Assembly (NCBI GenBank): GCA_041659845.1
Contig: JBAZXM010000001.1
Span: 124 to 64,123, forward strand
Origin: Minisyncoccota bacterium
GTDB taxonomy: Bacteria > Patescibacteriota > Minisyncoccia > Phycocordibacterales > UBA9973
Length of the DNA stretch: 64,000 nt
Direction: 5' to 3'
The notes below the pieces were generated by a model. The model did not search any database, was not told where the DNA came from, and saw only the letters and a program-made list of their open reading frames with translations. Position numbers and translations under genes: made by a program. Below are positions 11,810 to 35,341 of this stretch, one piece after another. The stretch's first letter is position 1. Each line of letters starts with the position of its first letter.

Positions 11810-12313
11810 ATGATTATACAAAACACATTAGCATATTATCGAAAACGTAAGGGCTACTTACAAACAGACACAATTAAAGTTTTAGGATTTTGTAGTACAA
11901 ACAGAATTTCTCGCTGGGAGAAAGGTACAGCGGTTCCAAGTATTCATAATTTAGCAAAGCTTTGTGCACTTTATGATGTTTCGCCTAAAACCCTGTATCC
12001 AGTTTTATTCGATGATTCAGAGAAACAAATAAATAAAAAGAAGTCTGATCTAGGGATTGTTTACCCATTCAGACTTTTATTAAAAGTATCAATCGCTGAA
12101 GTGCTTAAAATCAAGGAAGTATATGATCATATTTTTAAATCTCTGACAAATATTAATGAGTTTGCGTGTTTTAAGGAGAGTTATTTTTGGGAGCTATTTA
12201 TGCGACTGATCGATATTTTAATACTGCGACAAGTAGTGGCAATCAACCAAATTTATTCTCTCAGTCAAGCAGTGGAGGAATGGCAGGTAATGTGGCTAAT
12301 TTTAATTGTATAA
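11810..12313 (+). CDS. XRE-family helix-turn-helix transcriptional regulator (HTH confined to first ~65 aa; 3' part of ORF overlaps the next CDS and may not be translated as drawn)
   Basis: LQTDTIKVLGFCSTNRISRWEKGTAVPSIHNLAKLCALYDVSPKTLY = Cro/C1-type HTH. Confidence 0.55.
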   Translation: MIIQNTLAYYRKRKGYLQTDTIKVLGFCSTNRISRWEKGTAVPSIHNLAKLCALYDVSPKTLYPVLFDDSEKQINKKKSDLGIVYPFRLLLKVSIAEVLKIKEVYDHIFKSLTNINEFACFKESYFWELFMRLIDILILRQVVAINQIYSLSQAVEEWQVMWLILIV

Positions 12314-13818
12314 TCGGAAACAATGGAACAGCAAATGCAGGAAGTTTTACAATTAATTATTATGTCTGTAGTTCTTCATCTTTCATAAGTCCAACTTGGA
12401 TTGGCTCAGATTATGTTTCAGGTTTAGTAGTTAGCTCAACATACAGTTCGCAAATAAGTATTGATTTATGTAATGCAGGCTTAGCAAATGGCACATATTA
12501 TCTTGGTTTTTATATTGACTATTCTAACCAAGTCGGTGAAAGTAATGAAAATGATAACAATACTTTTTACAACTCGAATCCCTATTCAATAAATTGTACG
12601 AGTGGAGGAAAGCCAAATTTATATGATATTTCAGGAAGTGCTGGGCTTACTGGTAATGTTGCTCTTTACAGTTATACTATTAGCAATAATGGTACTGGTA
12701 ATGCAGGAGGTTTTTATGTAAATTGTTATGCGTGCACTTCACCCTCTTTTACAAGTCCAATTTTGGTTGGTTCAGATTATGTTTCAGGTTTAGCTGTCGG
12801 CACCTCTTATACTTCGGAAATTAGTGTTGATCTTTGTAATTCTGGGTTGGCAACAGGTTCATATTATCTTGGTTTTTATATTGATTATTCCAACCAAATT
12901 GCTGAGAGTAATGAAAATGATAATAATACTTTTTATAGTTTCAGCGCAACGACAATAAATTGCTCTGGTAGTGGTGGTGGTTGCACTTATTCTATTTCAC
13001 CTCCAACTGGTCATGCTACTTTTCTTTTTGGTGGCGGCTCAGACTGGACTTATGTTACAACTAACAATAGCACATGTGCATGGACAGCTAGTACTCCAAA
13101 TAATTGGATAACTGTTTTAAACATTAGTGGAATTGGGAATAGCTATATTAATTATCAAGTTTCTACAAACACATCTCCTTATCCAAGAACAGGAACTATT
13201 GATGTAATGGGATTGATTTGTACAATATATCAAGATGGTCAAAATTGCCCGGTAACTGTTAATCCAATAACTGATAATATTTCAAACTCAAGTGGTAATT
13301 ATTCTTTTCATATGACTACTGGTCTTGGTTGTGGTCATTCAGTATTAACCAGCGATCCATCTTGGCTTACAATATTAAGCGTAGTTGGAGATACACTCGT
13401 TAGTGATCCCTCATGGCTTACAATAATAAATGTAGTTAGTAATACAGTTGTGAACTATCATGTTAATTCTAACCTTAGTTCACCTCGAATTGGTATAATA
13501 ACTGTTGATACTGTTTTACACTATGTTAATCAAAGCGGTATAACTAGATTAAACGAAATTAGTGCTAGTAAAGAATTTTTTATTTATCCAAACCCAACTG
13601 ATGGGGTTATTAATATTGTTGGTAAGAATTTTAAAAATGATGATTATAAAATAAAAATTGCAAATTTATTAGGAGAAATAATGAATGAAATAGATTTTCA
13701 TGTAAGCAATAATATCATTGTCAAACAAATTGATTTAAAACAACTACCAAGCGGCATTTATTTTCTAAATGTTTTTACGAAGGAAACTATGCAAATATTC
13801 AAAATAAATAAATTATAA
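12187..13818 (+). CDS. Repeat protein: 2x CARDB-like ~110-aa repeats + short SDPSWLT(I/L) duplicated segment + C-terminal T9SS-type (Por_Secre_tail-like) sorting domain; TTG start after AAGGAGAG RBS, no signal peptide
   Basis: Two near-identical repeats ending ...YYLGFYIDYSNQ(V/I)(G/A)ESNENDNNTFY (E.NE.NN CARDB signature); C-terminal FFIYPNPTDGVINIVGKNF...GIYFLNVFTKETMQIFKINKL. Confidence 0.65.
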   Translation: MGAIYATDRYFNTATSSGNQPNLFSQSSSGGMAGNVANFNCIIGNNGTANAGSFTINYYVCSSSSFISPTWIGSDYVSGLVVSSTYSSQISIDLCNAGLANGTYYLGFYIDYSNQVGESNENDNNTFYNSNPYSINCTSGGKPNLYDISGSAGLTGNVALYSYTISNNGTGNAGGFYVNCYACTSPSFTSPILVGSDYVSGLAVGTSYTSEISVDLCNSGLATGSYYLGFYIDYSNQIAESNENDNNTFYSFSATTINCSGSGGGCTYSISPPTGHATFLFGGGSDWTYVTTNNSTCAWTASTPNNWITVLNISGIGNSYINYQVSTNTSPYPRTGTIDVMGLICTIYQDGQNCPVTVNPITDNISNSSGNYSFHMTTGLGCGHSVLTSDPSWLTILSVVGDTLVSDPSWLTIINVVSNTVVNYHVNSNLSSPRIGIITVDTVLHYVNQSGITRLNEISASKEFFIYPNPTDGVINIVGKNFKNDDYKIKIANLLGEIMNEIDFHVSNNIIVKQIDLKQLPSGIYFLNVFTKETMQIFKINKL

Positions 13819-18517: not shown

Positions 18518-21500
18518 ATGTCAACTATTTTTAAACATACCAAACTCTTTTTCAAACGAAACTCCATTCTTATCGTTTCGCTTGCTTCATTTGCGATCTT
18601 CTCCTCAGGATTACAACTCCTAGCATCATTCTCTCCTGGTCAAACACTAGATCCGAACTGTACCCCGGGATCAGTAGACTGCACCGTAGATGTCAGTAAT
18701 ACTCTTTCTAAAGGAACTTCATGGACTTCACGCACCAGCGCAGCGGATAATGATTGGAATGGCGTCGCATATGGCAATGGCCTCTTCGTGGCTGTTGCTA
18801 ATTCCGGTATTGGTAATCGTGTCATGACTTCACCCGATGGCATCAATTGGACAATCCGCACAAGTGCTTCTAACAATGCTTGGCGTGACATTACTTACGG
18901 CAACGGACTATTTGTGGCGGTTTCTCAGGATGGTGTAGGCAACCGCGTCATGACTTCACCTGACGGTATCACATGGACTTCACGTACCAGTGCGGCGGAT
19001 AATCAATGGCTTGGCGTCACTTACGGCAATGGCCTGTTCGTAGCCGTGTCTTTTGATGGCACCGGCAATCGTGTCATGACATCACCTGACGGTATTACAT
19101 GGACATCAAGAACAAGCGCAGCGGATAATAACTGGAGTAATATCACCTACGGCAACGGACTATTTGTGGCGGTAGCGCAAACCGGTACCGGCGACCGCGT
19201 CATGACTTCACCTGACGGTATCACCTGGACATCCCGCACCAGTGCGGCAGATAATGATTGGCTTGGCGTCACCTACGGCAATGGTCTTTTTGTAGCGGTA
19301 GCGCAAACCGGCACCGGCAACCGCGTTATGACCTCTCCAGACGGTATCACATGGACTTCACGCACTAGTGCGGCGGATAATACTTGGCGTTCAGTAGTAT
19401 ATGGAAATGGGCTTTTTGTAGGAGTTAGCTCTACCGGCACCGGCAACCGCGTTATGACCTCGCCAGACGGCATTACGTGGACAATTCGTACTAGCGCCGC
19501 GGATAACGGCTGGGATACAATTACCTATGGCAATGGCATGTTTGTTGCCGTAGGCTTTTCCGGCACCTCCAACCGTGTCATGACCTCCGGTAAAACCGAC
19601 TACATTCCATTTTCTCCGAATAATATTTTCCAAGGGGGAATGAATATTAACGGACTTGTCGGTATTGGAGGATCACCATCAGAAAATCTTACTATTACTA
19701 CATCTGACCTGGCTACAAATTTAACTTTTGGTATCAGAGCATTAACAGCTGGAGGTGCTTCATCAAGATCTATTTTTACTCAAAATGCTACAACAGGAGC
19801 ATTAACTCTTGGTGTGGATGTGGGATTAAATGGAACAGCAAGAGAATTTATTATTAATACCGGTTCGACAGAAAGAATGCGAATTGAATCTACGGGATTT
19901 GTAGGTATTAATGTAAACGCAACGTCACAGCCAGCATATCCTAATGCTAAATATATATTAGATGTTGCCGGCCCGACTATATTGGTTAGAAATTCAGCAG
20001 GAGGTAGATTCCTTGCAGAAGATACTGATGTTGCAGATGCAAGCAGTCCTTTTGCTTATTTTCAAAGTGACGGGGGAGTTATTAAAATAGGGAATGCAAA
20101 TAGAAATGCGGGGACAGGACTAACTACTGGAAGTGTAGATAGAATGACAATATTGGCTAATGGCAACCTCGGCATCGGGACGACTTCCCCCACCCAAAAA
20201 CTAGATGTTACGGGTTCTGGTAGATTCATAGGAACAGGCACTTCTGTTTTGACAGGAAGTATAGATCCAACAGCTTCCACCTCTGTCGTCGGAGTAGGAA
20301 CATTATTTACTACAGAATTAGCTGTGGGGGATAGTATTACTGTTAACGCAGAAACAAGAAGGGTAACAGTTATAACTGACGCTCTTAATCTTACTGTAGA
20401 TACCGCTTTTACTGATACCGCCAACGACACTTCGCCAGATAAACTAGTTCCTGTTTTGGATATTCAAAGCAGTATGGCTCAAATTTCAACAACGTTAAAG
20501 GTTTCAAACACTAGTGCAAGTGGTGGAAACATTTTACAGATGGATAGAGTTAATAATTCAAGAGCAAATGCTATAAATTTCACTACATTAGGAGCTTCAG
20601 ACTGGTATATGGGAGTATTGCGAAACGCAGGCAATCCTACCCAAACATTCGGTTTGAGTTTTGGTGATGCCAATTTGACCACGAATGGTTTTGTGGTGAA
20701 TAGTACTGGTAAATTTGGAATTGGAACGACTACTCCAACTACTCTTCTCTATGTCGGCAATTCATCAGTTTCAGGTATTGTTGCGACTTTTGAAAATTCA
20801 ACAGGAGTTTGCACAATCAATCCGACCACTTCTTCTGTCGGCTGTTCGTCCGACCAAAGTTTGAAACATGATATTACTACGCTCTCAAATTCAATGGATA
20901 AAATCCGCGCTCTTCGTGGAGTTAATTTCAAATGGAACGTTGATCAAGATTCTGACCCAATGCGAATCGGCTTCATCGCTCAAGAAGTGCAGTCTATTGT
21001 GCCAGAGCTCGTTTCCGATATGCCCAATGGAAAACTCGGAGTCAATTATGCAGGATTCACTCCACTCCTCATTGAAGGTATGAAAGATCTTGACCTCCGC
21101 TTGAAATCTCTGGAAACCCTTGATGACGGAACAGGTTCTTCACCTCTGAAGAAACTCATTATGGATTATCTTTTGAATACAGAGGAGAAGATTATGAATG
21201 GCATTGTCCGCGTGCAGGAACTCATCACTAACAAACTCACTGTTGGAAGTTCTTCACAGCCTGCAGGGGTGACATTGTTTGATCAAGTCACATCGAGTCC
21301 ATACTGTATCTCGGTTGCAAATGGAACACTCACGACGCTTTCAGGTGTGTGTGGTACTGCGGCAACACCATCCTCTCCTTCGATAGGCTCAGGATCTCCG
21401 ACAACCCCACCACCGAGCGATCCACTACCATCCGACCCTGATCCGTCGCCAGGAGGCGAGGAAGTACCTCCAACACCTTCTGATGAGAGCGTTACTCCAC

Positions 21501-21538
21501 CGGCTGATATTCCACCATCCGAACCTGTGGTTGAATAA
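18518..21538 (+). CDS. Large surface fibre-like protein: signal/TM anchor, 8x 40-aa BNR(Asp-box)-type repeats, beta-rich central region, C-terminal Peptidase-S74 intramolecular chaperone (auto-proteolytic) domain, Pro/Ser/Thr-rich tail
   Basis: Repeats RVMTSPDGITWTSRTSAADNxWxxVTYGNGLFVAV (S-x-D-G-x-T-W Asp-box); C-terminus SSDQSLKHDITTL...NFKWNVD....IGFIAQEVQSIVPELV...L.V.Y..LIEGMKDL matches endosialidase/tail-spike chaperone domain. Confidence 0.7.
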   Translation: MSTIFKHTKLFFKRNSILIVSLASFAIFSSGLQLLASFSPGQTLDPNCTPGSVDCTVDVSNTLSKGTSWTSRTSAADNDWNGVAYGNGLFVAVANSGIGNRVMTSPDGINWTIRTSASNNAWRDITYGNGLFVAVSQDGVGNRVMTSPDGITWTSRTSAADNQWLGVTYGNGLFVAVSFDGTGNRVMTSPDGITWTSRTSAADNNWSNITYGNGLFVAVAQTGTGDRVMTSPDGITWTSRTSAADNDWLGVTYGNGLFVAVAQTGTGNRVMTSPDGITWTSRTSAADNTWRSVVYGNGLFVGVSSTGTGNRVMTSPDGITWTIRTSAADNGWDTITYGNGMFVAVGFSGTSNRVMTSGKTDYIPFSPNNIFQGGMNINGLVGIGGSPSENLTITTSDLATNLTFGIRALTAGGASSRSIFTQNATTGALTLGVDVGLNGTAREFIINTGSTERMRIESTGFVGINVNATSQPAYPNAKYILDVAGPTILVRNSAGGRFLAEDTDVADASSPFAYFQSDGGVIKIGNANRNAGTGLTTGSVDRMTILANGNLGIGTTSPTQKLDVTGSGRFIGTGTSVLTGSIDPTASTSVVGVGTLFTTELAVGDSITVNAETRRVTVITDALNLTVDTAFTDTANDTSPDKLVPVLDIQSSMAQISTTLKVSNTSASGGNILQMDRVNNSRANAINFTTLGASDWYMGVLRNAGNPTQTFGLSFGDANLTTNGFVVNSTGKFGIGTTTPTTLLYVGNSSVSGIVATFENSTGVCTINPTTSSVGCSSDQSLKHDITTLSNSMDKIRALRGVNFKWNVDQDSDPMRIGFIAQEVQSIVPELVSDMPNGKLGVNYAGFTPLLIEGMKDLDLRLKSLETLDDGTGSSPLKKLIMDYLLNTEEKIMNGIVRVQELITNKLTVGSSSQPAGVTLFDQVTSSPYCISVANGTLTTLSGVCGTAATPSSPSIGSGSPTTPPPSDPLPSDPDPSPGGEEVPPTPSDESVTPPADIPPSEPVVE
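18720..19600 (+). repeat. Coding tandem repeat, 120-bp period x ~8 (near-identical at DNA level)
   Basis: ggtatcacatggacttcacg... blocks recur every 120 nt; explains spurious antisense ORFs 19273..19633. Confidence 0.8.
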
Positions 21539-21556
21539 TGGTGTATACTAAAAGAA

Positions 21557-23452
21557 GTGATAGACCATAATGAAAAAATTACATATTTCGCCGAGACTGA
21601 TTTTAGGAATAAACAAGCACGCTTTGGTATAAAGGCAAAAGACCGCACTCGCCACATGTATGTCATCGGTAAGACAGGCATGGGTAAATCAACCATACTT
21701 GAAAATATGGCGATTCAAGATATTCAGAACGGCGAAGGTCTTGCATTCATCGATCCCCACGGCGGAACTGCTGAAAAATTACTTGATTATGTTCCCGAAC
21801 ACCGTATTAAGGATGTCGTCTATTTTGCGCCGTTTGATGCTGAATATCCGATGTCATTCAATGTTCTTGAGGATATCGGCGCAGACAAACGCCACCTGGT
21901 TGTTTCCGGCTTAATGAGTGTCTTTAAGAAAATCTGGCAGGATGCATGGAGCGCTCGCATGGAGTACATTCTAAACAACACATTACTCGCATTACTCGAA
22001 TATCCGGGCTCAACTTTGATGGGAGTGAACAAAATGCTTTCGGATAAAGATTTCCGAAAAAAGATTGTCGATAACGTACAAGACCCGGCAGTGAAATCAT
22101 TCTGGGTTGATGAATATGCAAAGTATACGGAAAAGTTCGCTGCTGAGGCGACGCCGGCTATTCAGAACAAAGTCGGTCAGTACACATTAAACCCACTCAT
22201 TCGAAACATCATCGGTCAGCCGAAATCATCATTTGATATTCGCGAGTTGATGGATACGAAGAAAATTTTCATTATCAATCTCTCTAAGGGTCGTATCGGC
22301 GAGCAGAATATGAATTTGCTCGGCGGCATGTTCGTTACGAAAATCTACCTAGCCGCGATGTCGCGTGCCGACCTTTCCGAAGCGGAAATCGCCAAGCTTC
22401 CACCATTTTATCTTTATGTAGACGAGTTCCAAAATTTCGCCAACGAATCTTTTTCTCAAATTCTTTCCGAAGCTCGAAAGTACAAATTCGCTCTTACAGT
22501 CGCCAACCAATATGTCACTCAAATGGTCGAGGAAGTCCGCGATGCTATTTTCGGCAACGTCGGATCGATAATTTGCTATCGCGTCGGTCCCGCCGATGCT
22601 GACCTTTTTGAAAAAGAATTTGCTCCGCAGTTCACAGCTGAGGATATAGTAAACCTAGGCCAGTTCCAAATGTATTTACGCTTGATGATTGACGGTGTCG
22701 GCTCGAAGCCATTTTCTGCTCGTGGTATGGCGCCTATTCCGCGGCCGGAAATTTTCTATCGAGAGCAAATAATCGAGAGTTCTCGAAAAGTTTTCGCCCA
22801 CACTCGTGCTGAAGTCGAAGAGGGAATAAAAGCCTGGCACGATACAATTTCTCAAAAGCCGGAAAGGCCGAAACGTGAAGAAATGCCTGCTGGCGGAAAT
22901 GAGTACCAGAGGCCTAGAGAATTTTCCGACCGGCAATTCGAAAGGCCGAGGCAGAATTTCCCGCCGAGAAATGATGCTCCGCGCAGGTTTGAAGGCGAAA
23001 ATAACAGGAGAAGTTTTCCACCTACCCCACCTCGCCAGGAAGCGCCAATTCACAAGCCTTTTGTTAAAGTTTTTGAAAAACCTCAAAAATTCGAACAGCC
23101 TCGCGCTTCTTCTCCGAAATTAAAATCACTTTTGAATGAGCTCGAAAAAAGCGAACCTTCTACGAAGTCTACTATGCCCGCATCTATGCCAGTACTTCGT
23201 CCAGAACCTGAGAAAAAAACTCTTTCCCTTCATAATCTAAATAAAGCTTCAACAGGGAAATCACTCAACCTTTCCGGGCTCAAGGATGTACTTGCAAGCG
23301 CATTGAAGGATATGCCGGAAAAGCCACGCCCAGCACCAGCGCCAGCACCTAAAAAAGAAAGCGAGCCGGAGGAAAAAATCACAACAAACGAAACACAAAA
23401 AAAACAAACAAAAGAAGTCCCTGAAGATGTTCTTAGAAAAATTTTGGAATGA
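21557..23452 (+). CDS. TraD/VirD4/TrwB-like type-IV coupling-protein ATPase without N-terminal TM segment, with ~200-aa Arg/Pro/Glu-rich low-complexity C-terminal tail
   Basis: RHMYVIGKTGMGKSTILENM...LAFIDPHGG (H..V.G.TG.GKS / DPkGe pattern), later LYVDEFQNFA and KYKFALTVANQYVTQM (QS..QL-like) ; tail ERPKREEMPAGGNEYQRPREFSDRQFERPRQNFPPRNDAPRRFE... Confidence 0.6.
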   Translation: MIDHNEKITYFAETDFRNKQARFGIKAKDRTRHMYVIGKTGMGKSTILENMAIQDIQNGEGLAFIDPHGGTAEKLLDYVPEHRIKDVVYFAPFDAEYPMSFNVLEDIGADKRHLVVSGLMSVFKKIWQDAWSARMEYILNNTLLALLEYPGSTLMGVNKMLSDKDFRKKIVDNVQDPAVKSFWVDEYAKYTEKFAAEATPAIQNKVGQYTLNPLIRNIIGQPKSSFDIRELMDTKKIFIINLSKGRIGEQNMNLLGGMFVTKIYLAAMSRADLSEAEIAKLPPFYLYVDEFQNFANESFSQILSEARKYKFALTVANQYVTQMVEEVRDAIFGNVGSIICYRVGPADADLFEKEFAPQFTAEDIVNLGQFQMYLRLMIDGVGSKPFSARGMAPIPRPEIFYREQIIESSRKVFAHTRAEVEEGIKAWHDTISQKPERPKREEMPAGGNEYQRPREFSDRQFERPRQNFPPRNDAPRRFEGENNRRSFPPTPPRQEAPIHKPFVKVFEKPQKFEQPRASSPKLKSLLNELEKSEPSTKSTMPASMPVLRPEPEKKTLSLHNLNKASTGKSLNLSGLKDVLASALKDMPEKPRPAPAPAPKKESEPEEKITTNETQKKQTKEVPEDVLRKILE

Positions 23453-23504
23453 TTAACAATTTATTTTTAAGATATTAGTGCCCAGCATAATTTTGCTAAA
23501 CCAT

Positions 23505-24971
23505 ATGAAAAAATATTTTCTGTTTGCTGTGATTCTGTTCTCTTGTTCCGCTTTTCAAGTACATGCGCAATTTGTATTTACTGAAATAATGTACGATTTG
23601 CCCGGGACTGACACTGACCATGAATGGGTTGAAATACAGAATACAGGAGCCACTGATGCGGATGTAACTGATTGGAAATTTAATGATGGCTCTAATCATA
23701 ATTTAAATACTCCGCCGACAAACGGGTCTCAAGGTTCTTTTACAATTCCTGTCGGTGAGTATGCTATTTTAACTGCTGACGCGGTGAAATTTTTGTCTGA
23801 TTATTCCGGCTACGCTGGTACTGTTATCGATACAGTAATGAGTTTGAACAATACAACAGATACTCTTAAATTGATTGATAAAAACGGGATAGAAATCGAT
23901 TCCGTAACATACGATTCATCAATCGGTGCATCGGGTGATGGAAATACGATTCAAAAATCCAGCTCTTCTTGGATAGCGAGCTCTCCTACTGTGGGAATTT
24001 CTTATTCGGTATCTTCGCAAGGCGGAGGAACTGGCACTCAAGGGGTGACTAGCGGAACCACATCTGTAACTTCCCCCTCTATCCCAATGACCGCGAAAGA
24101 CGACGGCACTCCTAAAATAACTGCGGATATTATTTTGAAAAACACTCCGATTACGGGAGTAGATGCTATTTTTGATGCGGCTGTGATCGGCTACAGTAAA
24201 GAAAAGATTACTCGCGGGAAGTTCGTTTGGAATTTTGGCGACGGAGTGACGGAAGAAACTTCCGAAATAAAAAAGATGGAGCATATTTACGATTATCCGG
24301 GAGATTATGTCGTGATGCTTGAATATTACCCCAATTCTTATAGCACTGATCCTGATGCCACAGACCGACTTGTTATAAGTGTGCTTAAACAACAAGTTAT
24401 TATTTCATCTATAGGTTTCGATGCAAATCCGTATGTTGAAATTTCAAATACCGGAACTCACGAAATTGATCTCTCAAGATTCATTTTACGAGCATCTTCG
24501 GGTGCACAATTTGTGTTTCCCAAAAATACTATTGTACTAGGAAATAAAAAAATAATCCTTTCTCCCAAGATGACACATTTCACCGCAGATGATGTGAAAA
24601 CTGCAACACTTTTATATCCGAGCGGGGAAGTCGCATTTGCATATGAGTCTGCTTTAGAGAAAATAGAAAAGCAGCCAAGAGAACAAGTACAAGATGAGAA
24701 AATCATTCAGGTGGAAGATGCAACGAAATCAATTATCGCAACTAATAATGAGGAAGTTAAAAGTTCGTCTATCTTAAATTCAAGTATTTCTCCAGAAAAT
24801 CTTCAAGCGAATGCATTTAACGCACTACCCGAATCAACTTCAAGTTCTTTTGGATTGTGGGCTTTCGGACTTATCGTTTTGATGGCACTTGCCGGGGGAG
24901 CTGTTGTATTTTTGAGATTTAATTACAGTAAAGTCCAGTCAAAGGCAGATGATTTCGAAATTCTTGAATAA
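23505..24971 (+). CDS. Extracellular membrane-anchored protein: signal peptide, Lamin-tail domain (LTD), PKD-like domain, second LTD, C-terminal TM anchor (ORF-track start 23478; ATG at 23505 precedes signal peptide)
   Basis: FVFTEIMYDLPGTDTDHEWVEIQNTGATDADVTDWKF (LTD), GKFVWNFGDGVTEETSE...YPGDYVVML (PKD), NPYVEISNTGTHEIDLSRFIL (LTD), LWAFGLIVLMALAGGAVVFL anchor. Confidence 0.65.
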   Translation: MKKYFLFAVILFSCSAFQVHAQFVFTEIMYDLPGTDTDHEWVEIQNTGATDADVTDWKFNDGSNHNLNTPPTNGSQGSFTIPVGEYAILTADAVKFLSDYSGYAGTVIDTVMSLNNTTDTLKLIDKNGIEIDSVTYDSSIGASGDGNTIQKSSSSWIASSPTVGISYSVSSQGGGTGTQGVTSGTTSVTSPSIPMTAKDDGTPKITADIILKNTPITGVDAIFDAAVIGYSKEKITRGKFVWNFGDGVTEETSEIKKMEHIYDYPGDYVVMLEYYPNSYSTDPDATDRLVISVLKQQVIISSIGFDANPYVEISNTGTHEIDLSRFILRASSGAQFVFPKNTIVLGNKKIILSPKMTHFTADDVKTATLLYPSGEVAFAYESALEKIEKQPREQVQDEKIIQVEDATKSIIATNNEEVKSSSILNSSISPENLQANAFNALPESTSSSFGLWAFGLIVLMALAGGAVVFLRFNYSKVQSKADDFEILE

Positions 24972-24996
24972 TAATAATAATACACTTATTCCCATA

Positions 24997-26232
24997 ATGA
25001 CAACAATTACAGAAAATAAAAAAATCTTGATTGCCGGTGGCGGATTTGCCGGTATTCGCTCTGCGCTTGATCTTATAAAAAAGCATCCTTCTGCTTCAAT
25101 CACTCTCATCAACAACAAGCCGAATTTCGAATACTATCCCGGACTCTACCGCGTGGTCATGGATCATTCACCGATCAATGTCTGTATTCCTTATGAGCTT
25201 ATCTTTAAAGATCTACCAATAAAAGTGGTAGTCGATACGATTACTGGTGTTGATCTGATGGGGAAAAAAGTGGCAGGAGAGAAAGGTGCGTACTCCTACG
25301 ACACACTCGTGCTTGGCCTCGGCAGTGAGACGACTTACTTTAATCTGCCAGGGCTCGATACTCTTTCGTTCGGTTTCAAATCAGTCAAAGAAGCAATTAC
25401 GCTTAAAAACCATCTTCATGATTTATTTTTGGAACACACTCACCCTTCAAAAGAAGAAATGGTTTCTCATTTTCATGTGGTGCTTGTGGGAGGAGGAGCT
25501 TCGGGTGTTGAGCTTGCAGGCGATCTGATGCATCATTTGGAAACTATTGCCGAAATGCACAAAATTGATCCTTCACTCATAACCATCGATATAATCGAAG
25601 CGTCTTCCAGACTTGTGATGGCATTGCCAGAATCTGCATCGCAGAAAATTTTAAACCGCCTGCATAAACTCGGAGTCAATGTATTTTTGAATCGCGCTAT
25701 AGTCAAAGAAGAAATCGAGCAAGTGTATTTGAAAGACATGTCGATGAAATCAAAGACAGTCATCTGGACTGCAGGTACGAAAACGAATCATATCTATGGA
25801 GAAATATCTGGCCTTGAGCTTGATAAAAAGGGAAAAGTTGTAGTTGATGAATATTTACAAGCGAAGGGATTCGAAAATGTTTTTATTGTTGGTGATGCCG
25901 CCGCCACGTCATATGCCGGGTTAGCGCAAACGGCTCTTTATGATGGAAAATATGTTGCACGAACTATTGCTCACAAACTTTCAAATAAAAAACTAACACC
26001 ATATGTACCAAAGAAAAATGCTTATGTTATCCCTGTGGGCTATGGCTGGGGGATTGCCATAATAGGCAAATTCCAAATTACCGGATGGATTGCATGGATG
26101 CTTCGCCGATTTATCGATTTTAAATTCTTCTCAAGCATCTTGCCACTTAGTCACATCATTAAGATGTTCAAGGACGAAAAGCCTGATACTGTCTATTGCA
26201 ATGTTTGCGCAGGGTGTGAGGATGAGAAATAA
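24997..26232 (+). CDS. ndh: Type II NADH dehydrogenase-like FAD/NAD(P)-binding oxidoreductase (start at MTTITENKKILIAGGG)
   Basis: KKILIAGGGFAGI and VVLVGGGASGVELAGDL dinucleotide-binding motifs, GDAAAT. Confidence 0.7.
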   Translation: MTTITENKKILIAGGGFAGIRSALDLIKKHPSASITLINNKPNFEYYPGLYRVVMDHSPINVCIPYELIFKDLPIKVVVDTITGVDLMGKKVAGEKGAYSYDTLVLGLGSETTYFNLPGLDTLSFGFKSVKEAITLKNHLHDLFLEHTHPSKEEMVSHFHVVLVGGGASGVELAGDLMHHLETIAEMHKIDPSLITIDIIEASSRLVMALPESASQKILNRLHKLGVNVFLNRAIVKEEIEQVYLKDMSMKSKTVIWTAGTKTNHIYGEISGLELDKKGKVVVDEYLQAKGFENVFIVGDAAATSYAGLAQTALYDGKYVARTIAHKLSNKKLTPYVPKKNAYVIPVGYGWGIAIIGKFQITGWIAWMLRRFIDFKFFSSILPLSHIIKMFKDEKPDTVYCNVCAGCEDEK

Positions 26233-32251: not shown

Positions 32252-35200
32252 ATGAAGCAATACGATCACCTAAAAATCGAAAAGAAATGGCAGAAGGAAT
32301 GGGAGGCGAAGAAGGTTTACAAGACTGCTAATCCCGGCAAAATGAAAAAGCATTATGTGCTTGATATGTTTCCATACCCGTCCGGTGCGGGCCTTCATGT
32401 CGGCCATCCACGCGGATATATTGCAAGTGATGTATATGCGCGCATGAAGCGCATGCAAGGCTTCAATGTTCTTCACCCTATGGGCTTTGACTCATTCGGA
32501 TTGCCGGCAGAGCAATATGCAATACAAACAAAGAAGCACCCAGGGCCTTTCACTGAAAAGCTTGTGGAGCTCTACAAGAAGCAGCTTGAGATTATAGGCT
32601 TCTCATATGATTGGAGCAGGGAAGTCGCGACGCACAGGCCTGAATATTACAAATGGACGCAGTGGATATTTTTAAAACTCTATGATGCCTGGTATGACCA
32701 AACAAAAGATAAAGCGCGCGATATCAGTGAGCTGGTAAAAATTTTTAATAAAAATGGCAATGAAAATGTGAATGCTGTGTGTGATCAAAACACACCAACT
32801 TTTTCCGCGAAAGAATGGAAGCAGATGAGCGAGATGGAAAAGCAGAATATGCTCATGAAATATCGCTTGGCATACGAAGGCTATAGCGAAGTGAATTGGT
32901 GCTCGAAGTTAGGAACGGTGCTTGCGAATGATGAAATTGTAGATGGGCCTGACGGCAAGCCAGTCTCCGAGCGCGGCGGATTCGGAGTAGAAAAGAAATC
33001 CATGCGACAGTGGTTTATGAGAATAACTGCATATGCAGATAGATTACTTTCAGGCCTCGAAGGTCTTGATTGGTCATCACATATAAAAGAAATACAGAAG
33101 AATTGGATAGGGAAGAGTGAGGGGTCGGAGATCAGTTTTAAAATTGTTTCTGGAGATAAAAAAGATCTAGATAATCCCTTAGGTAGGAGAACCGACCTAG
33201 GATCTATTACAGTTTTCACTACAAGGGCTGATACGCTTTTCGGCGTCACCTATGTTGTTCTTGCGCCGGGGCATTTATTTCTTGAAAATATTAAAACTAG
33301 AATTTCAAATTGGAAAGAAGTTGAAAAATATCTTGATGTAATAAAAAACAAATCTGAAGAAGACAGAATAAAGGAAGGTGAAAAAACAGGTATTGAATTA
33401 AAGGGTATCATGGCAATCAATCCTGCAAATGGAGAAGTGGTACCTGTCTGGATAGCTGATTATGTCTTGGCAAATTACGGTACTGGTGCAGTAATGGCTG
33501 TGCCTGCACACGATGAGCGTGATTTCGAATTTGCGAAGAAATATAAATTACCGATTCGTGATGTTGTAGCAAAAATGATTGGCGAACATCATCATGAAAA
33601 TAATATTCGTGACGTTGCAGAGGGTGTCATTATTAAAGACGACCAGGTTCTTGTAATGGAATATAAAAATCAATATGGTTTGCCGGGTGGAGGAATTGAA
33701 GAAGGTGAAACTCCTGAGCAAGCATTATTAAGAGAAATCAGAGAAGAAATCGGGTATACAGATGTTGAAATTGTCGAATATCTAGGACAAGCAAATCGTT
33801 ATTATTTCTCGGATCGAGATCAAAAGAAAAAAGTAAGACATGCATATGGATATGTAGTAAAAATACTAAGTAACAAAAAAAACCCTACTGCTCCTCATGA
33901 AATTGATAAGCCTGTATGGCTCCCTATATCGGAAGCAATTCAAAAAGTTCAACAGAGTCCAATCTATTACCAAAGTAATTTTATTGACCGGGCGTTTAGT
34001 GGTATGGGGCAATGTTTTGTTGATAATGGCGTTTTGATTCAATCAGGGCAATTTGACAGCTTAACTTCTGAAGAAGCTCGTAAGAAAATTACCGAATTTG
34101 TCGGAGGTAAATTGATCACTAAATACAAAATGCGCGACGCGATTTTTGCTCGGCAGAGATATTGGGGCGAGCCGATTCCGCTTTCGACTGACAAGGATGG
34201 GATTATTCATGAAGTCAAAAAACTTCCACTTAAACTCCCAAATGTGAAATCATACGAGCCGGCAGGCACGGGTGAGAGTCCGCTTGCGGGAGTGAAGGAT
34301 TGGGTCAAGCATGGCTACGAGACAAATACCATGCCTGGTTGGGCGGGAAGCTCATGGTATTTCTTGCGTTACATGGACCCAAAAAATAAAAGTGCAATAG
34401 CAAGCAAACAAGCGATCAAATACTGGAAAGATGTGGACATGTATGTCGGCGGTGCAGAGCACGCAACAGGGCACTTGTTGTACTCGCGTTTCTGGCACAA
34501 ATTCTTGAAAGATATCGGCATTGCACAGACAGAAGAACCATTTAAAGCGCTTCGCAACCAAGGCTTGATAGGCGGTGCTGATGGGCGCAAGATGAGTAAG
34601 CGCTGGGGGAATGTCATAAACCCTGATGAGATTGTAAAAACTTATGGCGCTGATACACTCCGTGTCTACGAAGCATTCATGGGACCTTTTGATCAATCAC
34701 TTCCGTGGTCCACAGAGAGCATTATCGGCTCACGCAGATTTATTGAAAAAGTTTGGAGGATGGGGGAGAAAACAATTCTCGCTTCGCATAATTCTTTTCA
34801 AAAAGGTCCTCGGGTCGCCCGTGCAGGTTTATCAGGGAAGAGCGGGCTCGACCAGACCGTTTTTGAAAAGAACTCTGCTGCGCTTAAGAAAGTGCTTCAC
34901 AAAACTATTAAAAAAGTTACGGAAGACATTGCGAATTTTAATTTCAATACCGCAGTCTCAGCGATGATGATTTGCGCGAATGAAATGGAAAAAGCTGAAT
35001 ATGTTTCCGTGGAAGATTTCAAAAAATTCTTACAAATTTTAGCACCATTTGCCCCACATGCGTCTGAAGATCTTTGGCGTGAGCTCGGTGAGAAAAAATC
35101 AATCCATCTTTCAGAATGGCCTCTGTATGATAAGAAAAAGATTATTGATGACACTATCACTATTGCCATTCAGGTTAATAGCAAAGTCCGCGCAGAAATT

Positions 35201-35341
35201 TCTATTCCTATTGATATGAGCGAAAATGATCTAAAAAAACTTGTTTTGGAAAATCCTGCGACCAAGCAATGGACAGAAGGCAAGGAAATAAAGCGAATTA
35301 TCCATGTCAAAGGCAAGCTCGTCAATATAGTTATTGCTTGA
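32252..35341 (+). CDS. leuS: Leucyl-tRNA synthetase carrying an in-frame ~140-aa Nudix-hydrolase domain insertion (nt ~33565..34015) between the editing domain and the leucyl-specific/KMSKS region
   Basis: HVGHPRGY (HIGH), KMSKRWGN (KMSKS), GTGAVMAVPAHDERDFEFA editing-domain end; insertion contains perfect Nudix box GGGIEEGETPEQALLREIREEIGY. Confidence 0.9.
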   Translation: MKQYDHLKIEKKWQKEWEAKKVYKTANPGKMKKHYVLDMFPYPSGAGLHVGHPRGYIASDVYARMKRMQGFNVLHPMGFDSFGLPAEQYAIQTKKHPGPFTEKLVELYKKQLEIIGFSYDWSREVATHRPEYYKWTQWIFLKLYDAWYDQTKDKARDISELVKIFNKNGNENVNAVCDQNTPTFSAKEWKQMSEMEKQNMLMKYRLAYEGYSEVNWCSKLGTVLANDEIVDGPDGKPVSERGGFGVEKKSMRQWFMRITAYADRLLSGLEGLDWSSHIKEIQKNWIGKSEGSEISFKIVSGDKKDLDNPLGRRTDLGSITVFTTRADTLFGVTYVVLAPGHLFLENIKTRISNWKEVEKYLDVIKNKSEEDRIKEGEKTGIELKGIMAINPANGEVVPVWIADYVLANYGTGAVMAVPAHDERDFEFAKKYKLPIRDVVAKMIGEHHHENNIRDVAEGVIIKDDQVLVMEYKNQYGLPGGGIEEGETPEQALLREIREEIGYTDVEIVEYLGQANRYYFSDRDQKKKVRHAYGYVVKILSNKKNPTAPHEIDKPVWLPISEAIQKVQQSPIYYQSNFIDRAFSGMGQCFVDNGVLIQSGQFDSLTSEEARKKITEFVGGKLITKYKMRDAIFARQRYWGEPIPLSTDKDGIIHEVKKLPLKLPNVKSYEPAGTGESPLAGVKDWVKHGYETNTMPGWAGSSWYFLRYMDPKNKSAIASKQAIKYWKDVDMYVGGAEHATGHLLYSRFWHKFLKDIGIAQTEEPFKALRNQGLIGGADGRKMSKRWGNVINPDEIVKTYGADTLRVYEAFMGPFDQSLPWSTESIIGSRRFIEKVWRMGEKTILASHNSFQKGPRVARAGLSGKSGLDQTVFEKNSAALKKVLHKTIKKVTEDIANFNFNTAVSAMMICANEMEKAEYVSVEDFKKFLQILAPFAPHASEDLWRELGEKKSIHLSEWPLYDKKKIIDDTITIAIQVNSKVRAEISIPIDMSENDLKKLVLENPATKQWTEGKEIKRIIHVKGKLVNIVIA

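What the first reader, a model, noticed from the sequence alone, without database searches (positions are those of the whole stretch)
18518..24971. Candidate surface/DNA-translocation module: BNR-propeller fibre with S74 auto-chaperone + TM-less VirD4/TraD-like ATPase + LTD-PKD-LTD anchored protein
Three consecutive same-strand genes with 19-52 nt gaps. (1) A 1006-aa anchored protein has eight BNR-type propeller repeats, a beta-rich stalk and a C-terminal intramolecular-chaperone domain of the phage tail-spike/endosialidase (Peptidase S74) kind, a domain otherwise typical of trimeric phage fibres. (2) A 631-aa ATPase matches the type-IV coupling protein core motifs (RHMYVIGKTGMGKS...IDPHGG...YVDEFQNF...ANQYVTQM). 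It lacks the N-terminal membrane anchor and ends in a ~200-aa Arg/Pro-rich disordered tail. (3) A secreted, C-terminally anchored protein has two lamin-tail domains flanking a PKD domain; LTDs occur in bacterial extracellular nucleases and DNA-binding competence proteins. No integrase, capsid or terminase gene is nearby, so this is not an obvious prophage. In a CPR-type episymbiont, such a module could mediate host-cell attachment coupled to DNA or protein translocation. I do not recognise this three-gene combination as a described system.
Basis: partly seen in the sequence, partly recalled or inferred. Interest (0 to 1): 0.72.

Follow-up and report, generated by a model that had tools for sequence, protein, structure and literature searches.

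The report
Surface fibre beside split coupling ATPase
The three genes exist as described but are not one machine: a strain-specific, phage-like surface fibre sits next to a conserved gene pair (a widespread Patescibacteria motor ATPase and a surface protein that relatives swap for a DNA-binding ComEA-type protein), which hints at DNA handling at the cell envelope.

Summary
All three ORFs and their domains are real: an S74 chaperone fibre, a TM-less VirB4/VirD4-type ATPase with a 200-aa disordered tail, and an LTD-PKD-LTD anchored protein.

The triad is not a conserved module. The fibre is absent from 80 genome loci holding the ATPase, from 80 metagenome loci holding the LTD protein, and from the three closest relatives. 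It is a mosaic fibre, closest in kind to Bdellovibrio MAT and phage tail fibres. It has seven 42-aa propeller repeats, not eight, and no Pfam BNR match.

The ATPase is the already reported "orphan T4CP" of Patescibacteria, found in about 96% of genomes and far from virB4.

Two observations were not in the papers I read. First, it is the motor half of a split protein. A membrane partner (PF26449: TM helices plus a VirB4-N-terminal-like fold) lies directly upstream in 47 of 71 relatives. It is fused to the ATPase in a paralogue, in Bacillus phages G and SPO1, and in an actinomycete conjugation cluster. It is missing from this window. Second, in Paceibacteria the LTD protein is the ATPase's recurrent downstream neighbour, and in five relatives its first LTD is replaced by a ComEA-type HhH domain.

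Best guess, inferred only: a surface DNA receptor paired with a translocase.

The parts
18518..21538 (+). Gene 1: a 1006-aa mosaic surface fibre, lineage-specific and not part of the conserved unit
   Evidence: ORF. NCBI names the identical protein 'tail fiber domain-containing protein'. PHROGs tail-fibre families match aa 678-866 with up to 89 bits. There is no tblastn hit in 160 related loci.
18566..18622 (+). N-terminal hydrophobic segment of the fibre (aa 17-35), a signal peptide or signal anchor
   Evidence: Kyte-Doolittle 19-mer mean of 2.04.
18710..19591 (+). Seven tandem 42-aa repeats (aa 65-358), read as a seven-bladed beta-propeller
   Evidence: TRF finds a period of 126 nt. The repeats align in exact register. 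They are 72-75% identical in any register to repeats of P0136. GC3 is 0.49, against 0.24 in the stalk. The propeller fold itself is inferred and was not modelled.
19592..20848 (+). Beta-rich stalk and tip region (aa 359-777) carrying repeated 'GN(L/V)GIGTTxPtxKLxV' motifs
   Evidence: phmmer matches aa 534-610 to the Bdellovibrio MAT fibre Bd2133, PDB 8ond, with E 1.2e-4. PHROGs tail-fibre families also match.
20849..21535 (+). S74 intramolecular chaperone and self-cleaving protease domain (Pfam core aa 778-832; catalytic S778...K783), followed by a helical region and a Pro-rich tail
   Evidence: Pfam PF13884 scores 56 bits and covers profile positions 1-57 of 58. The SDQSLK motif is present. 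The SDxxxK motif and its function are described in PMC10769870.
21557..22846 (+). Gene 2, core (aa 1-430): a VirB4/VirD4-superfamily P-loop motor domain with a helical insertion
21668..21691 (+). Walker A motif, GKTGMGKS (aa 38-45)
   Evidence: Read from the sequence. These columns are invariant in alignment A1.
22409..22426 (+). Walker B motif, YLYVDE (aa 285-290)
   Evidence: Read from the sequence. Y285, V288, D289 and E290 are invariant.
22847..23452 (+). Gene 2, disordered basic tail (aa 431-631) ending in the conserved motif EVPEDVLRKILE
   Evidence: Composition and pI 9.8. AF2 pLDDT is below 50 from aa 435. The end motif is shared by the relatives that lack an upstream M1 gene. Relatives with M1 end in LKPGQxIKFD-type motifs instead.
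23478..24971 (+). Gene 3: a secreted surface protein anchored at its C-terminus, built as LTD-PKD-LTD-TM. The probable start is the ATG at 23505. It is the ATPase's recurrent downstream partner in Paceibacteria.
   Evidence: Pfam LTD scores 88 bits over two stretches, and PKD_4 scores 28 bits. It is the +1 gene in 14 of 80 genome loci. It also follows the ATPase in L081 and L083, and lies two genes downstream in L082. In the reverse test, 22 of 40 relatives have the ATPase directly upstream.
23571..23987 (+). LTD1 (aa 32-170 of the ORF), the domain replaced by a ComEA-type HhH domain in five relatives
   Evidence: Alignment A4. Pfam HHH_3 scores 59-81 bits in the +1 genes of L007, L011, L012, L013 and L018. 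Caveat: the domain is very acidic, with net charge -15.
24123..24662 (+). PKD domain (aa 216-300) and LTD2 (aa 301-395), the part shared with the HhH-bearing relatives
   Evidence: tblastn matches query aa 210-487 at 24-30% identity, with E from 4e-9 to 2e-17. The columns W242, G245, D246, G247, G266 and Y268 are invariant.
24843..24968 (+). C-terminal TM helix (aa 456-478) and a 19-aa cytoplasmic tail ending in DDFEILE
   Evidence: Hydropathy. An 'EFEI(L)E'-type tail end recurs in L081, L082, L083, L013 and L016.

Best explanation
The region holds two things that are only neighbours in this lineage.

**(A) Gene 1 is a mosaic cell-surface fibre.** It has an N-terminal signal or anchor segment, a seven-bladed propeller, a phage/MAT-type trimeric beta-stalk and a C-terminal S74 intramolecular chaperone. 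The chaperone would drive trimerisation and then cut itself off at S778. The fibre occupies a variable slot upstream of the ATPase. It most likely serves host or surface recognition by an episymbiont, as the Bdellovibrio MAT fibres do. This function is inferred.

**(B) Genes 2 and 3 are a conserved pair.**
- Gene 2 is the soluble motor half of a split T4CP-like ATPase of the VirB4/VirD4 superfamily. This ATPase is nearly universal and chromosomal in Patescibacteria, and it is encoded away from the T4SS genes.
- In most other Patescibacteria the missing half is a separate protein, here called M1 (PF26449). M1 has N-terminal TM helices plus a VirB4-N-terminal-like domain, and its gene lies directly upstream of the ATPase gene.
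- The two halves are one polypeptide in a patescibacterial paralogue, in Bacillus phage G gp156 and SPO1 gp27.4, and in an actinomycete conjugation-cluster 'T4CP'. In this window, and in its whole subclade, M1 is not adjacent.
- Gene 3 is a type-I anchored surface protein. In relatives its first LTD is exchanged for a ComEA-type HhH DNA-binding domain.

**Most likely mechanism (inferred, not shown).** The surface protein captures extracellular DNA. The hexameric ATPase is held at the membrane by M1 or by another partner, possibly through the conserved motifs at the end of its tail or through the cytoplasmic tail of gene 3. It then powers movement of DNA through the single membrane, for uptake or for export.
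For: **The fibre is not linked to the other two genes.**
- 0 of 80 genome loci and 0 of 80 metagenome loci hold it.
- The closest relatives have other genes upstream of the ATPase.
- Fibre homologues share mainly the propeller.
- One S74 relative sits beside a transposase and RecG.

**What the fibre is.** S74 scores 56 bits and the SDQSLK motif is present. The stalk matches Bd2133. PHROGs tail-fibre families match. The properties of MAT fibres come from PMC10769870.

**The ATPase.**
- More than 8000 homologues were found, and at least 599 genome places. The core is 70-88% identical among homologues.
- It has a T4CP/VirB4 fold.
- T4CP homologues occur in 2,918 of 3,035 Patescibacteria genomes, and only 148 lie near virB4 (PMC12102498).

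**The split.**
- M1 lies upstream in 47 of 71 loci, with a median gap of about 9 nt.
- A fused paralogue exists at L064:11200-13563.
- The M1 model matches the VirB4/TrwK N-terminal domain: the top 12 hits have E down to 5e-6.
- The M1 HMM hits phage G gp156 (E 2.9e-23) and SPO1 gp27.4 (E 2.7e-10).
- An Embleya plasmid protein of 812 aa annotated as T4CP lies beside PrgI, an ATPase, a replication-relaxation protein and NlpC/P60. It aligns with the fused paralogue over 732 aa (E 3e-67).

**The pair.**
- The LTD protein is the +1 gene in 14 loci whose other flanking genes differ.
- L027 and L090 carry M1, the ATPase and the LTD protein together.
- In the reverse test, 22 of 40 LTD-protein relatives have the ATPase directly upstream.
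- HhH replaces LTD1 in 5 loci.
- LTD and duplicate HhH are alternative accessory domains of secreted DNases (PMC4486849).
- The ComEA annotation is found in only 31% of CPR genomes (PMC6744442).
Against: - No DNA-uptake gene (ComEC, DprA, ComF, pilins) lies in the window or next to the pair in any locus examined.
- The LTD ectodomain is strongly acidic (net -27, and LTD1 -15), which is not what a simple DNA-binding surface looks like.
- The pairing is not universal. It is absent from about 10 of the closer loci and from nearly all of the M1-type loci, L027 excepted, where the +1 gene is PGK or some other housekeeping gene. In the reverse test, 18 of 40 LTD relatives lack the ATPase.
- The t4cp homologue of S. 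epibionticum was dispensable in Tn-seq (PMC12102498). I could not show that it is the orthologue of this ATPase.
- Structure comparison cannot separate T4CP from the VirB4 C-terminal domain. NCBIfam scores are far below the curated cut-offs: 50 against 250.
- Whether this genome has M1 elsewhere is unknown.
Confidence: 0.45

Rival explanations
1. The ATPase is simply the coupling protein of the patescibacterial T4SS, the VirB3-TrsD-VirB4-VirB6-VirB2 cluster encoded elsewhere, often near oriC. It would feed protein or DNA substrates to that machine for delivery into the host. On this reading the LTD protein is an unrelated adhesin that happens to be syntenic.
For: - T4CP profiles are the best sequence matches.
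- TrwB, DotL and Cag-beta are top structural matches.
- A full-length homologue sits in a conjugation-type cluster next to a relaxase-like gene.
- T4CP genes are often encoded far from virB4 (PMC12102498).
- The long tail with conserved end motifs resembles the docking tails of T4CPs. This last point rests on established knowledge of TraD-TraM and was not tested here.
Against: - Only 148 of 5,713 homologues lie near virB4. The homologue was dispensable in S. epibionticum although the T4SS is essential, and the authors themselves suggest exaptation.
- Almost no relaxases occur in the phylum.
- The conserved neighbours are M1, an HTH protein and, in Paceibacteria, a ComEA-like surface protein, not T4SS parts.
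Confidence: 0.25
2. One reading: the fibre, the ATPase and the LTD protein form one module that couples host-cell attachment to DNA or protein translocation.
For: The genes are on the same strand with 18-nt and 25-52-nt gaps and no terminator-like site between them. So they may be co-transcribed in this organism. All three products are plausibly associated with the envelope.
Against: - The fibre is absent from all 160 related loci and from the three closest relatives.
- The slot upstream of the ATPase is variable: PAS protein, Kelch propeller, RsmI, DUF4015, or M1.
- Fibre relatives occur without the ATPase.
Confidence: 0.07
3. The ATPase is a housekeeping DNA translocase in the manner of FtsK (chromosome segregation at division) or HerA (repair). 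Its extreme conservation would reflect that core role.
For: - The core is 55-88% identical across the phylum and the genomic context is housekeeping.
- The neighbours in other classes include SecDF, a RecJ-like protein and RNase H.
Against: - There is no HAS barrel and no FtsK gamma domain.
- The partner M1 is VirB4-N-terminal-like.
- Homologues occur on plasmids and phages, including a conjugation cluster.
Confidence: 0.1
4. The region is a remnant of a prophage, an integrative element or a defence island.
For: - The fibre matches phage tail-fibre families.
- The ATPase matches phrog_5156 with 185 bits, and PADLOC mad8 (57 bits), HerA and DndH.
- GC is somewhat raised across 18.7-23 kb.
- Serine recombinases lie a few kb from the ATPase in L081 and L083.
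Against: - No integrase, capsid, terminase, relaxase or other MADS or Dnd gene occurs among the ORFs scanned in the 64 kb.
- The ATPase is a vertically conserved core gene with conserved chromosomal synteny: PyrRedox, UDG, YchF and LeuRS follow it in L083 as well.
- The GC3 of the ATPase and LTD genes is not a clear outlier.
Confidence: 0.03

Closest known systems
Chromosomal 'T4CP homologues' of Patescibacteria (Quinonero-Coronel et al. 2025, PMC12102498)
   Same: This is the same protein class: VirD4-profile ATPases present in 2,918 of 3,035 genomes and almost never near virB4. NCBI already names the identical protein a 'type IV secretory system conjugative DNA transfer family protein'.
   Different: The passages and Table S3 entries of that paper that I read mention no partner. 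Here the ATPase is shown to be the motor half of a split protein whose other half is the PF26449 partner. In Paceibacteria it is also paired with an LTD or ComEA-like surface protein.
Type IV coupling proteins TrwB, VirD4, TraD and DotL
   Different: There is no N-terminal TM domain in this polypeptide. Identity is about 13-14%. NCBIfam scores are far below the cut-offs. No relaxase or T4SS genes are nearby. The N-terminal partner in relatives is a large VirB4-like domain rather than a simple TM hairpin.
VirB4 (TrwK of R388; T. pseudethanolicus VirB4 C-terminal domain) and the split TrsD-VirB4 of Patescibacteria
   Different: Sequence profiles favour T4CP over VirB4 for both the ATPase and its fused paralogue. 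The gene is encoded apart from the VirB3/VirB6/VirB2 cluster.
Bacillus phage G gp156, SPO1 gp27.4 (phrog_5156) and the Embleya plasmid 812-aa 'T4CP'
   Same: The same two-domain unit, an M1-like domain plus this ATPase, occurs in one polypeptide.
   Different: Identity is 23-29%. No function is annotated for the phage proteins in the records seen. The actinomycete protein lies in a conjugation-type cluster, whereas the window gene lies among housekeeping genes.
Bdellovibrio MAT (mosaic adhesive trimer) fibres and phage S74 tail fibres or endosialidase spikes
   Same: About 1000 aa, surface-exposed and mosaic. The beta-stalk motif is shared with Bd2133. The C-terminus is an S74 chaperone with the SDxxxK motif.
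   Different: The window fibre has a seven-blade propeller where MAT proteins have their conserved N-terminal domain of about 130 aa. It comes from a monoderm episymbiont. Trimerisation and cleavage have not been tested.
ComEA (membrane-anchored or periplasmic DNA receptor of natural transformation)
   Same: Five relatives carry a bona fide ComEA-type HHH_3 domain in the same gene position and the same PKD-LTD-TM scaffold. The protein is secreted and membrane-anchored.
   Different: The window protein has an acidic LTD instead of HhH. DNA binding is untested. It is not next to comEC.
DNA import through T4SS-related machines (archaeal Ced/Ted; H. pylori ComB)
   Same: They set a precedent for VirB4-family ATPases driving DNA import. 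Both are cited in PMC12102498. NCBIfam CedD gives a weak hit of 32 bits on the P-loop region.
   Different: No homologous membrane channel or pilus genes lie nearby. The resemblance is conceptual only.

Membership tests
Type IV coupling protein (VirD4/TraD/TrwB) | P-loop NBD with Walker A and B motifs, of the FtsK/HerA/VirB4/VirD4 superfamily | tested here: met
   GKTGMGKS and YVDE are invariant. Pfam T4SS-DNA_transf scores 28.5 against a cut-off of 20.1.
Type IV coupling protein (VirD4/TraD/TrwB) | All-alpha domain inserted in the NBD | tested here: inconclusive
Type IV coupling protein (VirD4/TraD/TrwB) | N-terminal transmembrane anchor | tested here: not met
   There is no hydrophobic segment. 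The ORF begins right after the fibre's stop codon. In 47 of 71 relatives the anchor is supplied in trans by the upstream M1 protein, but M1 is not in this window.
Type IV coupling protein (VirD4/TraD/TrwB) | Genomic association with a relaxase and/or T4SS channel genes | tested here: not met
   None was found among the ORFs scanned in the 64 kb. In the literature, only 148 of 5,713 homologues lie near virB4. The rest of the genome could not be searched.
Type IV coupling protein (VirD4/TraD/TrwB) | Reaches the curated family thresholds (NCBIfam) | tested here: not met
   conju_CD1115 scores 50 against 250, and SXT_TraD scores 48 against 366.
VirB4 | Two-domain architecture: an N-terminal domain (often bound to VirB3) plus a C-terminal ATPase | tested here: inconclusive
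HerA / FtsK housekeeping translocases | HAS barrel (HerA), or alpha/beta/gamma motor with a 4-TM N-terminus (FtsK) | tested here: not met
Peptidase S74 intramolecular-chaperone fibres (phage tail spikes; Bdellovibrio MAT-S74) | C-terminal S74 domain with the catalytic Ser-Lys motif (SDxxxK) | tested here: met
   PF13884 scores 56 bits against a cut-off of 22 and covers the full profile. S778-DQSL-K783 is present. The motif definition is from PMC10769870.
Peptidase S74 intramolecular-chaperone fibres (phage tail spikes; Bdellovibrio MAT-S74) | Trimeric intertwined beta-helix stalk, and self-cleavage | not testable with these tools
   Only sequence similarity of the stalk motifs to Bd2133 (E 1.2e-4) and to PHROGs tail fibres is available. 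No multimer modelling or biochemistry could be done.
Bdellovibrio MAT superfamily | Conserved beta-rich domain of about 130 aa directly after the signal peptide | not tested
   The window protein has propeller repeats from aa 65, so the MAT N-domain is probably absent. No MAT N-domain profile was available.
BNR/Asp-box (sialidase-type) propeller | SxDxGxTW Asp-box repeats recognised by the BNR profile | tested here: not met
   There is no BNR hit at E<=0.01. The motif is SPDGITW, one residue shorter. There are seven repeats of 42 aa. The weak Pfam hits are EPTP and DUF6242.
Lamin-tail-domain / PKD surface proteins | LTD and PKD profile matches | tested here: met
   LTD scores 88.4 against 34.3 over two stretches. 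PKD_4 scores 28.4 against 27.
ComEA | Extracytoplasmic HhH (HHH_3) DNA-binding domain | tested here: not met
   It is absent from the window protein and from the whole window. It is present at the orthologous position in L007, L011, L012, L013 and L018, with 59-81 bits.
Prophage / integrative conjugative element | Integrase, capsid and terminase, or relaxase, nearby | tested here: not met
   Every scanned window ORF with a family match has housekeeping or other unrelated domains, and several matched no family. About ten ORFs of 130-190 aa were not scanned.

The most novel reading that the evidence does not exclude
In Paceibacteria, a split T4CP-like motor and a ComEA-analogous surface receptor form a DNA-uptake or DNA-release route across the single membrane. 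The receptor has an LTD or HhH head on a PKD-LTD-TM scaffold. This route would work independently of the T4SS. It would fill the gap left by the scarcity of ComEA annotations in CPR genomes. It would also explain why an 'orphan' coupling protein is kept under very strong purifying selection in nearly every genome of a phylum that almost lacks relaxases.
Probability: 0.2. Interest if true: 0.75.

Novelty: new variant of a known kind. Interest (0 to 1): 0.45.

Why it matters
Patescibacteria cannot make nucleotides and live on other cells, so how they move DNA and other macromolecules across their envelope is an open question.

The phylum-wide "orphan T4CP" has no assigned role. Two results here give concrete, testable handles on it:
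- It is half of a split protein with a defined membrane partner.
- In one large class it travels with a ComEA-like surface protein.

The LTD-for-HhH swap also offers a candidate for the "alternative DNA-binding mechanism" proposed for CPR genomes that lack ComEA.

The fibre adds a further example of phage-type S74 fibres used by a cell that lives on other cells, alongside Bdellovibrio. Taken alone it is an ordinary member of that kind.

Tried and rejected
**Interpretations tested and dropped**
- Triad conservation was tested from both directions and rejected. Starting from the ATPase gave 80 genome loci, and starting from the LTD protein gave 80 metagenome loci.
- Prophage or ICE: no hallmark genes.
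- Defence island: PADLOC gives only ATPase-level hits (mad8 57 bits, HerA, DndH) with no partner genes.
- BNR family for the propeller: no profile hit.
- Recent transfer of the propeller from Bacteroidota: the 72-81% identity holds in every repeat register, so it reflects an idealised repeat. GC3 is raised (0.49), but the ATPase core is similar (0.465), so this is left open.
- A hidden upstream anchor for the ATPase is impossible, because the frame is continuous with the fibre's stop codon.
- The M1 HMM and a ComEA-HhH HMM find nothing in the window.

**Searches that gave nothing usable**
- The look-up of encoding contigs found no record for P0168 or P0225, the closest full-length fibre relatives.
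- The 16-sequence LTD alignment was too divergent for a metagenome scan, so a 4-sequence alignment was used instead.
- The M1 profile gave no hit against PDB sequences. The local Pfam copy lacks PF26449.
- The promoter and terminator scans were uninformative.

**Not possible with these tools**
- Searching the rest of this genome, or complete Paceibacteria genomes, for M1, ComEC or VirB4.
- Checking whether the dispensable S. epibionticum t4cp is the orthologue of this ATPase.

Full report
**Observation**

The window region holds three consecutive + strand ORFs:
- 18518-21538 (1006 aa)
- 21557-23452 (631 aa)
- 23478-24971 (497 aa; the probable true start is the ATG at 23505)

They are separated by 18 nt and by 25-52 nt. 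No terminator-like site lies between them.
- Peptidase_S74 at aa 778-832 of gene 1 (56 bits, cut-off 22).
- T4SS-DNA_transf, TrwB_AAD_bind, DUF87 and TraG-D_C on gene 2, all only a few bits above their cut-offs.
- LTD twice (88 bits) plus a marginal PKD on gene 3.

Two details need correcting.
- The propeller has seven exact 42-aa repeats (aa 65-358), not eight.
- The repeats are not recognised by the BNR profile. The motif is SPDGITW, one residue shorter than the Asp-box.

The ATPase has no hydrophobic segment. It cannot have a hidden upstream anchor, because its frame runs straight on from the fibre's TAA stop. Its last 200 residues are Pro/Glu/Lys/Arg-rich and basic, and AF2 predicts them to be disordered.

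The ORFs scanned in the rest of the 64-kb window are mostly housekeeping genes. They include MreB, MreC, TGT, UvrABC, Ddl, LeuRS, MurJ, LepA, another class-I aminoacyl-tRNA synthetase, TsaD, Gmk, TruB, FtsZ, FtsA and YbeY. None of them is an integrase, capsid, terminase, relaxase, VirB4, pilin or ComEC gene. The identical proteins are on record from a Candidatus Paceibacterota MAG. NCBI annotates them as a 'tail fiber domain-containing protein' and a 'type IV secretory system conjugative DNA transfer family protein'.

**Is the triad a module? No.**

The ATPase has more than 8000 homologues, which saturated the search. It has at least 599 matches in species-representative genomes, all titled as Patescibacteria apart from some evidently mislabelled third-party assemblies.

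I fetched 80 of these loci with 8 kb on each side, called ORFs, and clustered all neighbouring proteins.
- The fibre has no tblastn hit in any of the 80 loci.
- The three closest relatives of the ATPase (59-68% identity over the full length) have other genes upstream. L081 has a PAS protein. In L082 only a 64-aa ORF lies between the contig end and the ATPase. L083 has a Kelch propeller two genes away.
- In the reverse direction, 80 metagenome loci that encode relatives of gene 3 also lack the fibre.
- Fibre homologues share mainly the propeller repeats, which cover about 29% of the query, and only one is near full length.
- The one S74 relative whose context I could read lies in tandem with a second S74 fibre, beside a Y1 transposase and RecG.

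So the fibre occupies a variable slot.

**What the fibre is**

- PHROGs tail-fibre families match aa 678-866 with up to 89 bits.
- phmmer against PDB sequences matches the stalk (aa 534-610, 'VDRMTILANGNLGIGTTSPTQKLDV') to Bd2133 (8ond), with E 1.2e-4. Bd2133 is a Bdellovibrio mosaic adhesive trimer (MAT) fibre.
- The MAT paper describes proteins of about 1000 aa that are displayed on the predator's surface. They are built on intertwined trimeric beta-prisms. Thirteen of the 21 end in an S74 chaperone/protease with an SDxxxK motif that cuts itself off after trimerisation (PMC10769870).
- The window protein has S778-DQSL-K783 at the start of its S74 domain.
- It is compositionally mosaic. GC3 is 0.49 in the propeller, 0.24 in the stalk and 0.38 in the S74 part.

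I therefore read it as a new member of the cellular S74 fibre kind. Its likely job is surface or host recognition by an episymbiont. Trimerisation, cleavage and the ligand are all inferred.

**What the ATPase is**

The core is 70-88% identical among 40 homologues, with intact Walker A and B motifs.

An AF2 model (pLDDT 88, pTM 0.88) was compared with solved structures.
- Foldseek: best match to the coupling protein TrwB (E 2.5e-12, TM about 0.6), then DotL and Cag-beta, with HerA lower.

So the protein belongs with VirB4 and VirD4 and not with FtsK. Structure alone cannot separate T4CP from VirB4. Sequence profiles favour T4CP, but NCBIfam scores are far below the curated cut-offs.

The class is already described. 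Quinonero-Coronel et al. found 5,713 VirD4-type homologues in 2,918 of 3,035 Patescibacteria genomes, and only 148 of them lie near virB4. They noted that the homologue is dispensable in S. epibionticum and may have been exapted (PMC12102498).

**The missing anchor**

In 47 of the 71 loci with enough upstream sequence, the gene directly upstream encodes a protein of about 400-450 aa that I call M1. The median gap is about 9 nt. M1 is recorded as PF26449 in precomputed Pfam annotations.

The 24 loci without M1 are exactly the subclade closest to the window.

Two lines of evidence tie M1 to the ATPase.
- **Fold.** AF2 (pLDDT 84) gives N-terminal helices followed by an alpha/beta domain. Its 12 best PDB matches are all the N-terminal domain of VirB4/TrwK, with E down to 5e-6 but a modest TM of 0.35-0.41.
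- **Fusions.** One patescibacterial paralogue, L064:11200-13563, carries the M1 domain and the ATPase in a single polypeptide. phrog_5156 matches the ATPase with 185 bits in its C-terminal half. The M1 HMM matches the N-terminal halves of Bacillus phage G gp156 (E 2.9e-23) and SPO1 gp27.4 (E 2.7e-10).

An 812-aa 'T4CP' on an Embleya plasmid aligns with the fused paralogue over 732 residues (E 3e-67). It lies between a PrgI/VirB3-like gene, a second ATPase, a replication-relaxation gene and an NlpC/P60 hydrolase.

The window ATPase is therefore the motor half of a split T4CP-like protein. A second conserved upstream gene in the M1-type loci encodes a Sigma70_r4+HARE-HTH protein, found in 37 loci.

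The tail-end motif also differs between the two groups. Relatives without M1 end in 'EVPEDVLRKIL'-type motifs. Relatives with M1 end in 'LKPGQxIKFD'-type motifs.

Whether the window's genome encodes M1 elsewhere could not be tested.

**The conserved pair**

- Gene 3 relatives are the gene immediately downstream of the ATPase, on the same strand, in 14 of the 80 genome loci. They also follow it directly in L081 and L083, and lie two genes away in L082.
- In these loci the other flanking genes vary. L027 and L090 have M1, the ATPase and the LTD protein all in a row.
- In the reverse test, 40 metagenomic relatives had the full architecture and at least 2.2 kb of upstream sequence. Of these, 22 have the ATPase orthologue directly upstream.
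- In five loci (L007, L011, L012, L013, L018) the +1 gene begins with a signal peptide and a ComEA-type HHH_3 domain (59-81 bits). In L011, L013 and L018 this is followed by the same PKD, second LTD and C-terminal TM helix as in the window protein. So the first LTD has been exchanged for a known DNA-binding module.
- Secreted bacterial DNases show the same choice between an LTD and a duplicate HhH accessory domain, and the authors of that study suggest the two are functionally analogous (PMC4486849).
- The ComEA annotation is found in only 31% of CPR genomes, which prompted the suggestion of an alternative DNA-binding mechanism (PMC6744442).

**Mechanism and its limits**

My best reading is a surface DNA receptor (gene 3) working with a membrane-associated hexameric translocase (gene 2, with M1 or another anchor). 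Together they would move DNA across the single membrane.

This is inference from gene neighbourhood and domain exchange. Several observations count against it.
- The LTD ectodomain is very acidic (net -27).
- No com gene is adjacent in any locus.
- The pairing is limited to part of one class. In the other loci the +1 gene is PGK, a glycosyltransferase or similar.
- A T4CP homologue was dispensable in the one organism tested.

The main rival is that the ATPase is simply the coupling protein of the T4SS encoded elsewhere. A housekeeping FtsK- or HerA-like role, and a mobile-element or defence remnant, are less likely.

**Verdict**

- The proposed three-gene system is not supported.
- The fibre is an ordinary new member of a known kind, and the ATPase class is already known.
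- The split architecture with PF26449 and the ComEA-like partner were not mentioned in the papers I read. They make the orphan patescibacterial T4CP experimentally approachable.

Noticed in passing
window 32252-35341 (+): The leucyl-tRNA synthetase carries a NUDIX hydrolase domain (aa 456-564, 71 bits), which begins where the Pfam editing-domain match (aa 283-472) ends. This is an unusual fusion.
   Followed up: no
window 12187-13818 (+): A 543-aa CARDB x2 + BACON protein ends in a Por_Secre_tail domain (47.8 bits). To my knowledge this is the C-terminal sorting signal of the Bacteroidota type IX secretion system, yet here it sits in a Patescibacteria contig. Its GC3 of 0.175 is the lowest of all genes measured, against 0.27-0.41 for the others. 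That suggests foreign origin.
   Followed up: partly
window 18710-19591 (fibre propeller): The 42-aa repeats are 72-75% identical, in every register, to repeats of P0136 (1603 aa, on a 4.0-Mb contig, Por_Secre_tail). They are up to 81% identical to repeats of other large surface proteins from Bacteroidota-like sources. This is an idealised repeat family shared across phyla. GC in this stretch is 0.50-0.54, against 0.31-0.35 in the 1.2 kb upstream.
   Followed up: partly
L064:11200-13563; L165:2861-5338 (phage G gp156); L166:2747-5467 (SPO1 gp27.4): Fusion proteins join the M1 (PF26449-like) domain to the ATPase. Large Bacillus phages carry such proteins (phrog_5156), and no function is annotated for them in the records seen. 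In phage G the upstream gene, gp155, is annotated as VirB-like.
   Followed up: partly
L001-L080, last 40 aa of the ATPase: The disordered tail ends in clade-specific short motifs. It is 'EVPE(E/D)VLRK(I/L)L' where M1 is not adjacent, and 'LKPGQxIKFD' or '(V/I)(D/N)LSELKxxL' where M1 is adjacent. This pattern suggests different docking partners.
   Followed up: partly
L027-L080, gene two positions upstream of the ATPase (-2): A protein of about 350 aa with Sigma70_r4 and HARE-HTH domains precedes M1 and the ATPase in 37 loci, often downstream of SecD/SecF. It may be a cytoplasmic DNA-binding partner.
   Followed up: no
L103:3581-4762 and L144:72-1301: A much more divergent ATPase-like gene, about 24% identical, lies directly upstream of LTD-protein relatives.
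   Followed up: no
window 24949-26232 (+): A Pyr_redox_2 oxidoreductase gene overlaps the end of gene 3 by 23 nt. It also follows the LTD gene in L083, L085 and L127, and lies 1.8-2.7 kb downstream of it in L081, L091 and L123. It may belong to the same transcript.
   Followed up: no
window 21557-23452: The best PADLOC hit of the ATPase is mad8 of the MADS defence system (57 bits, E 4e-16). That is stronger than any Pfam T4CP hit, but no other MADS gene is present.
   Followed up: no
L081:1-359 and L083:405-1946: Serine recombinase genes (Resolvase + Recombinase domains) lie a few kb upstream of the ATPase in two close relatives. This fits with the upstream slot being a variable region.
   Followed up: no
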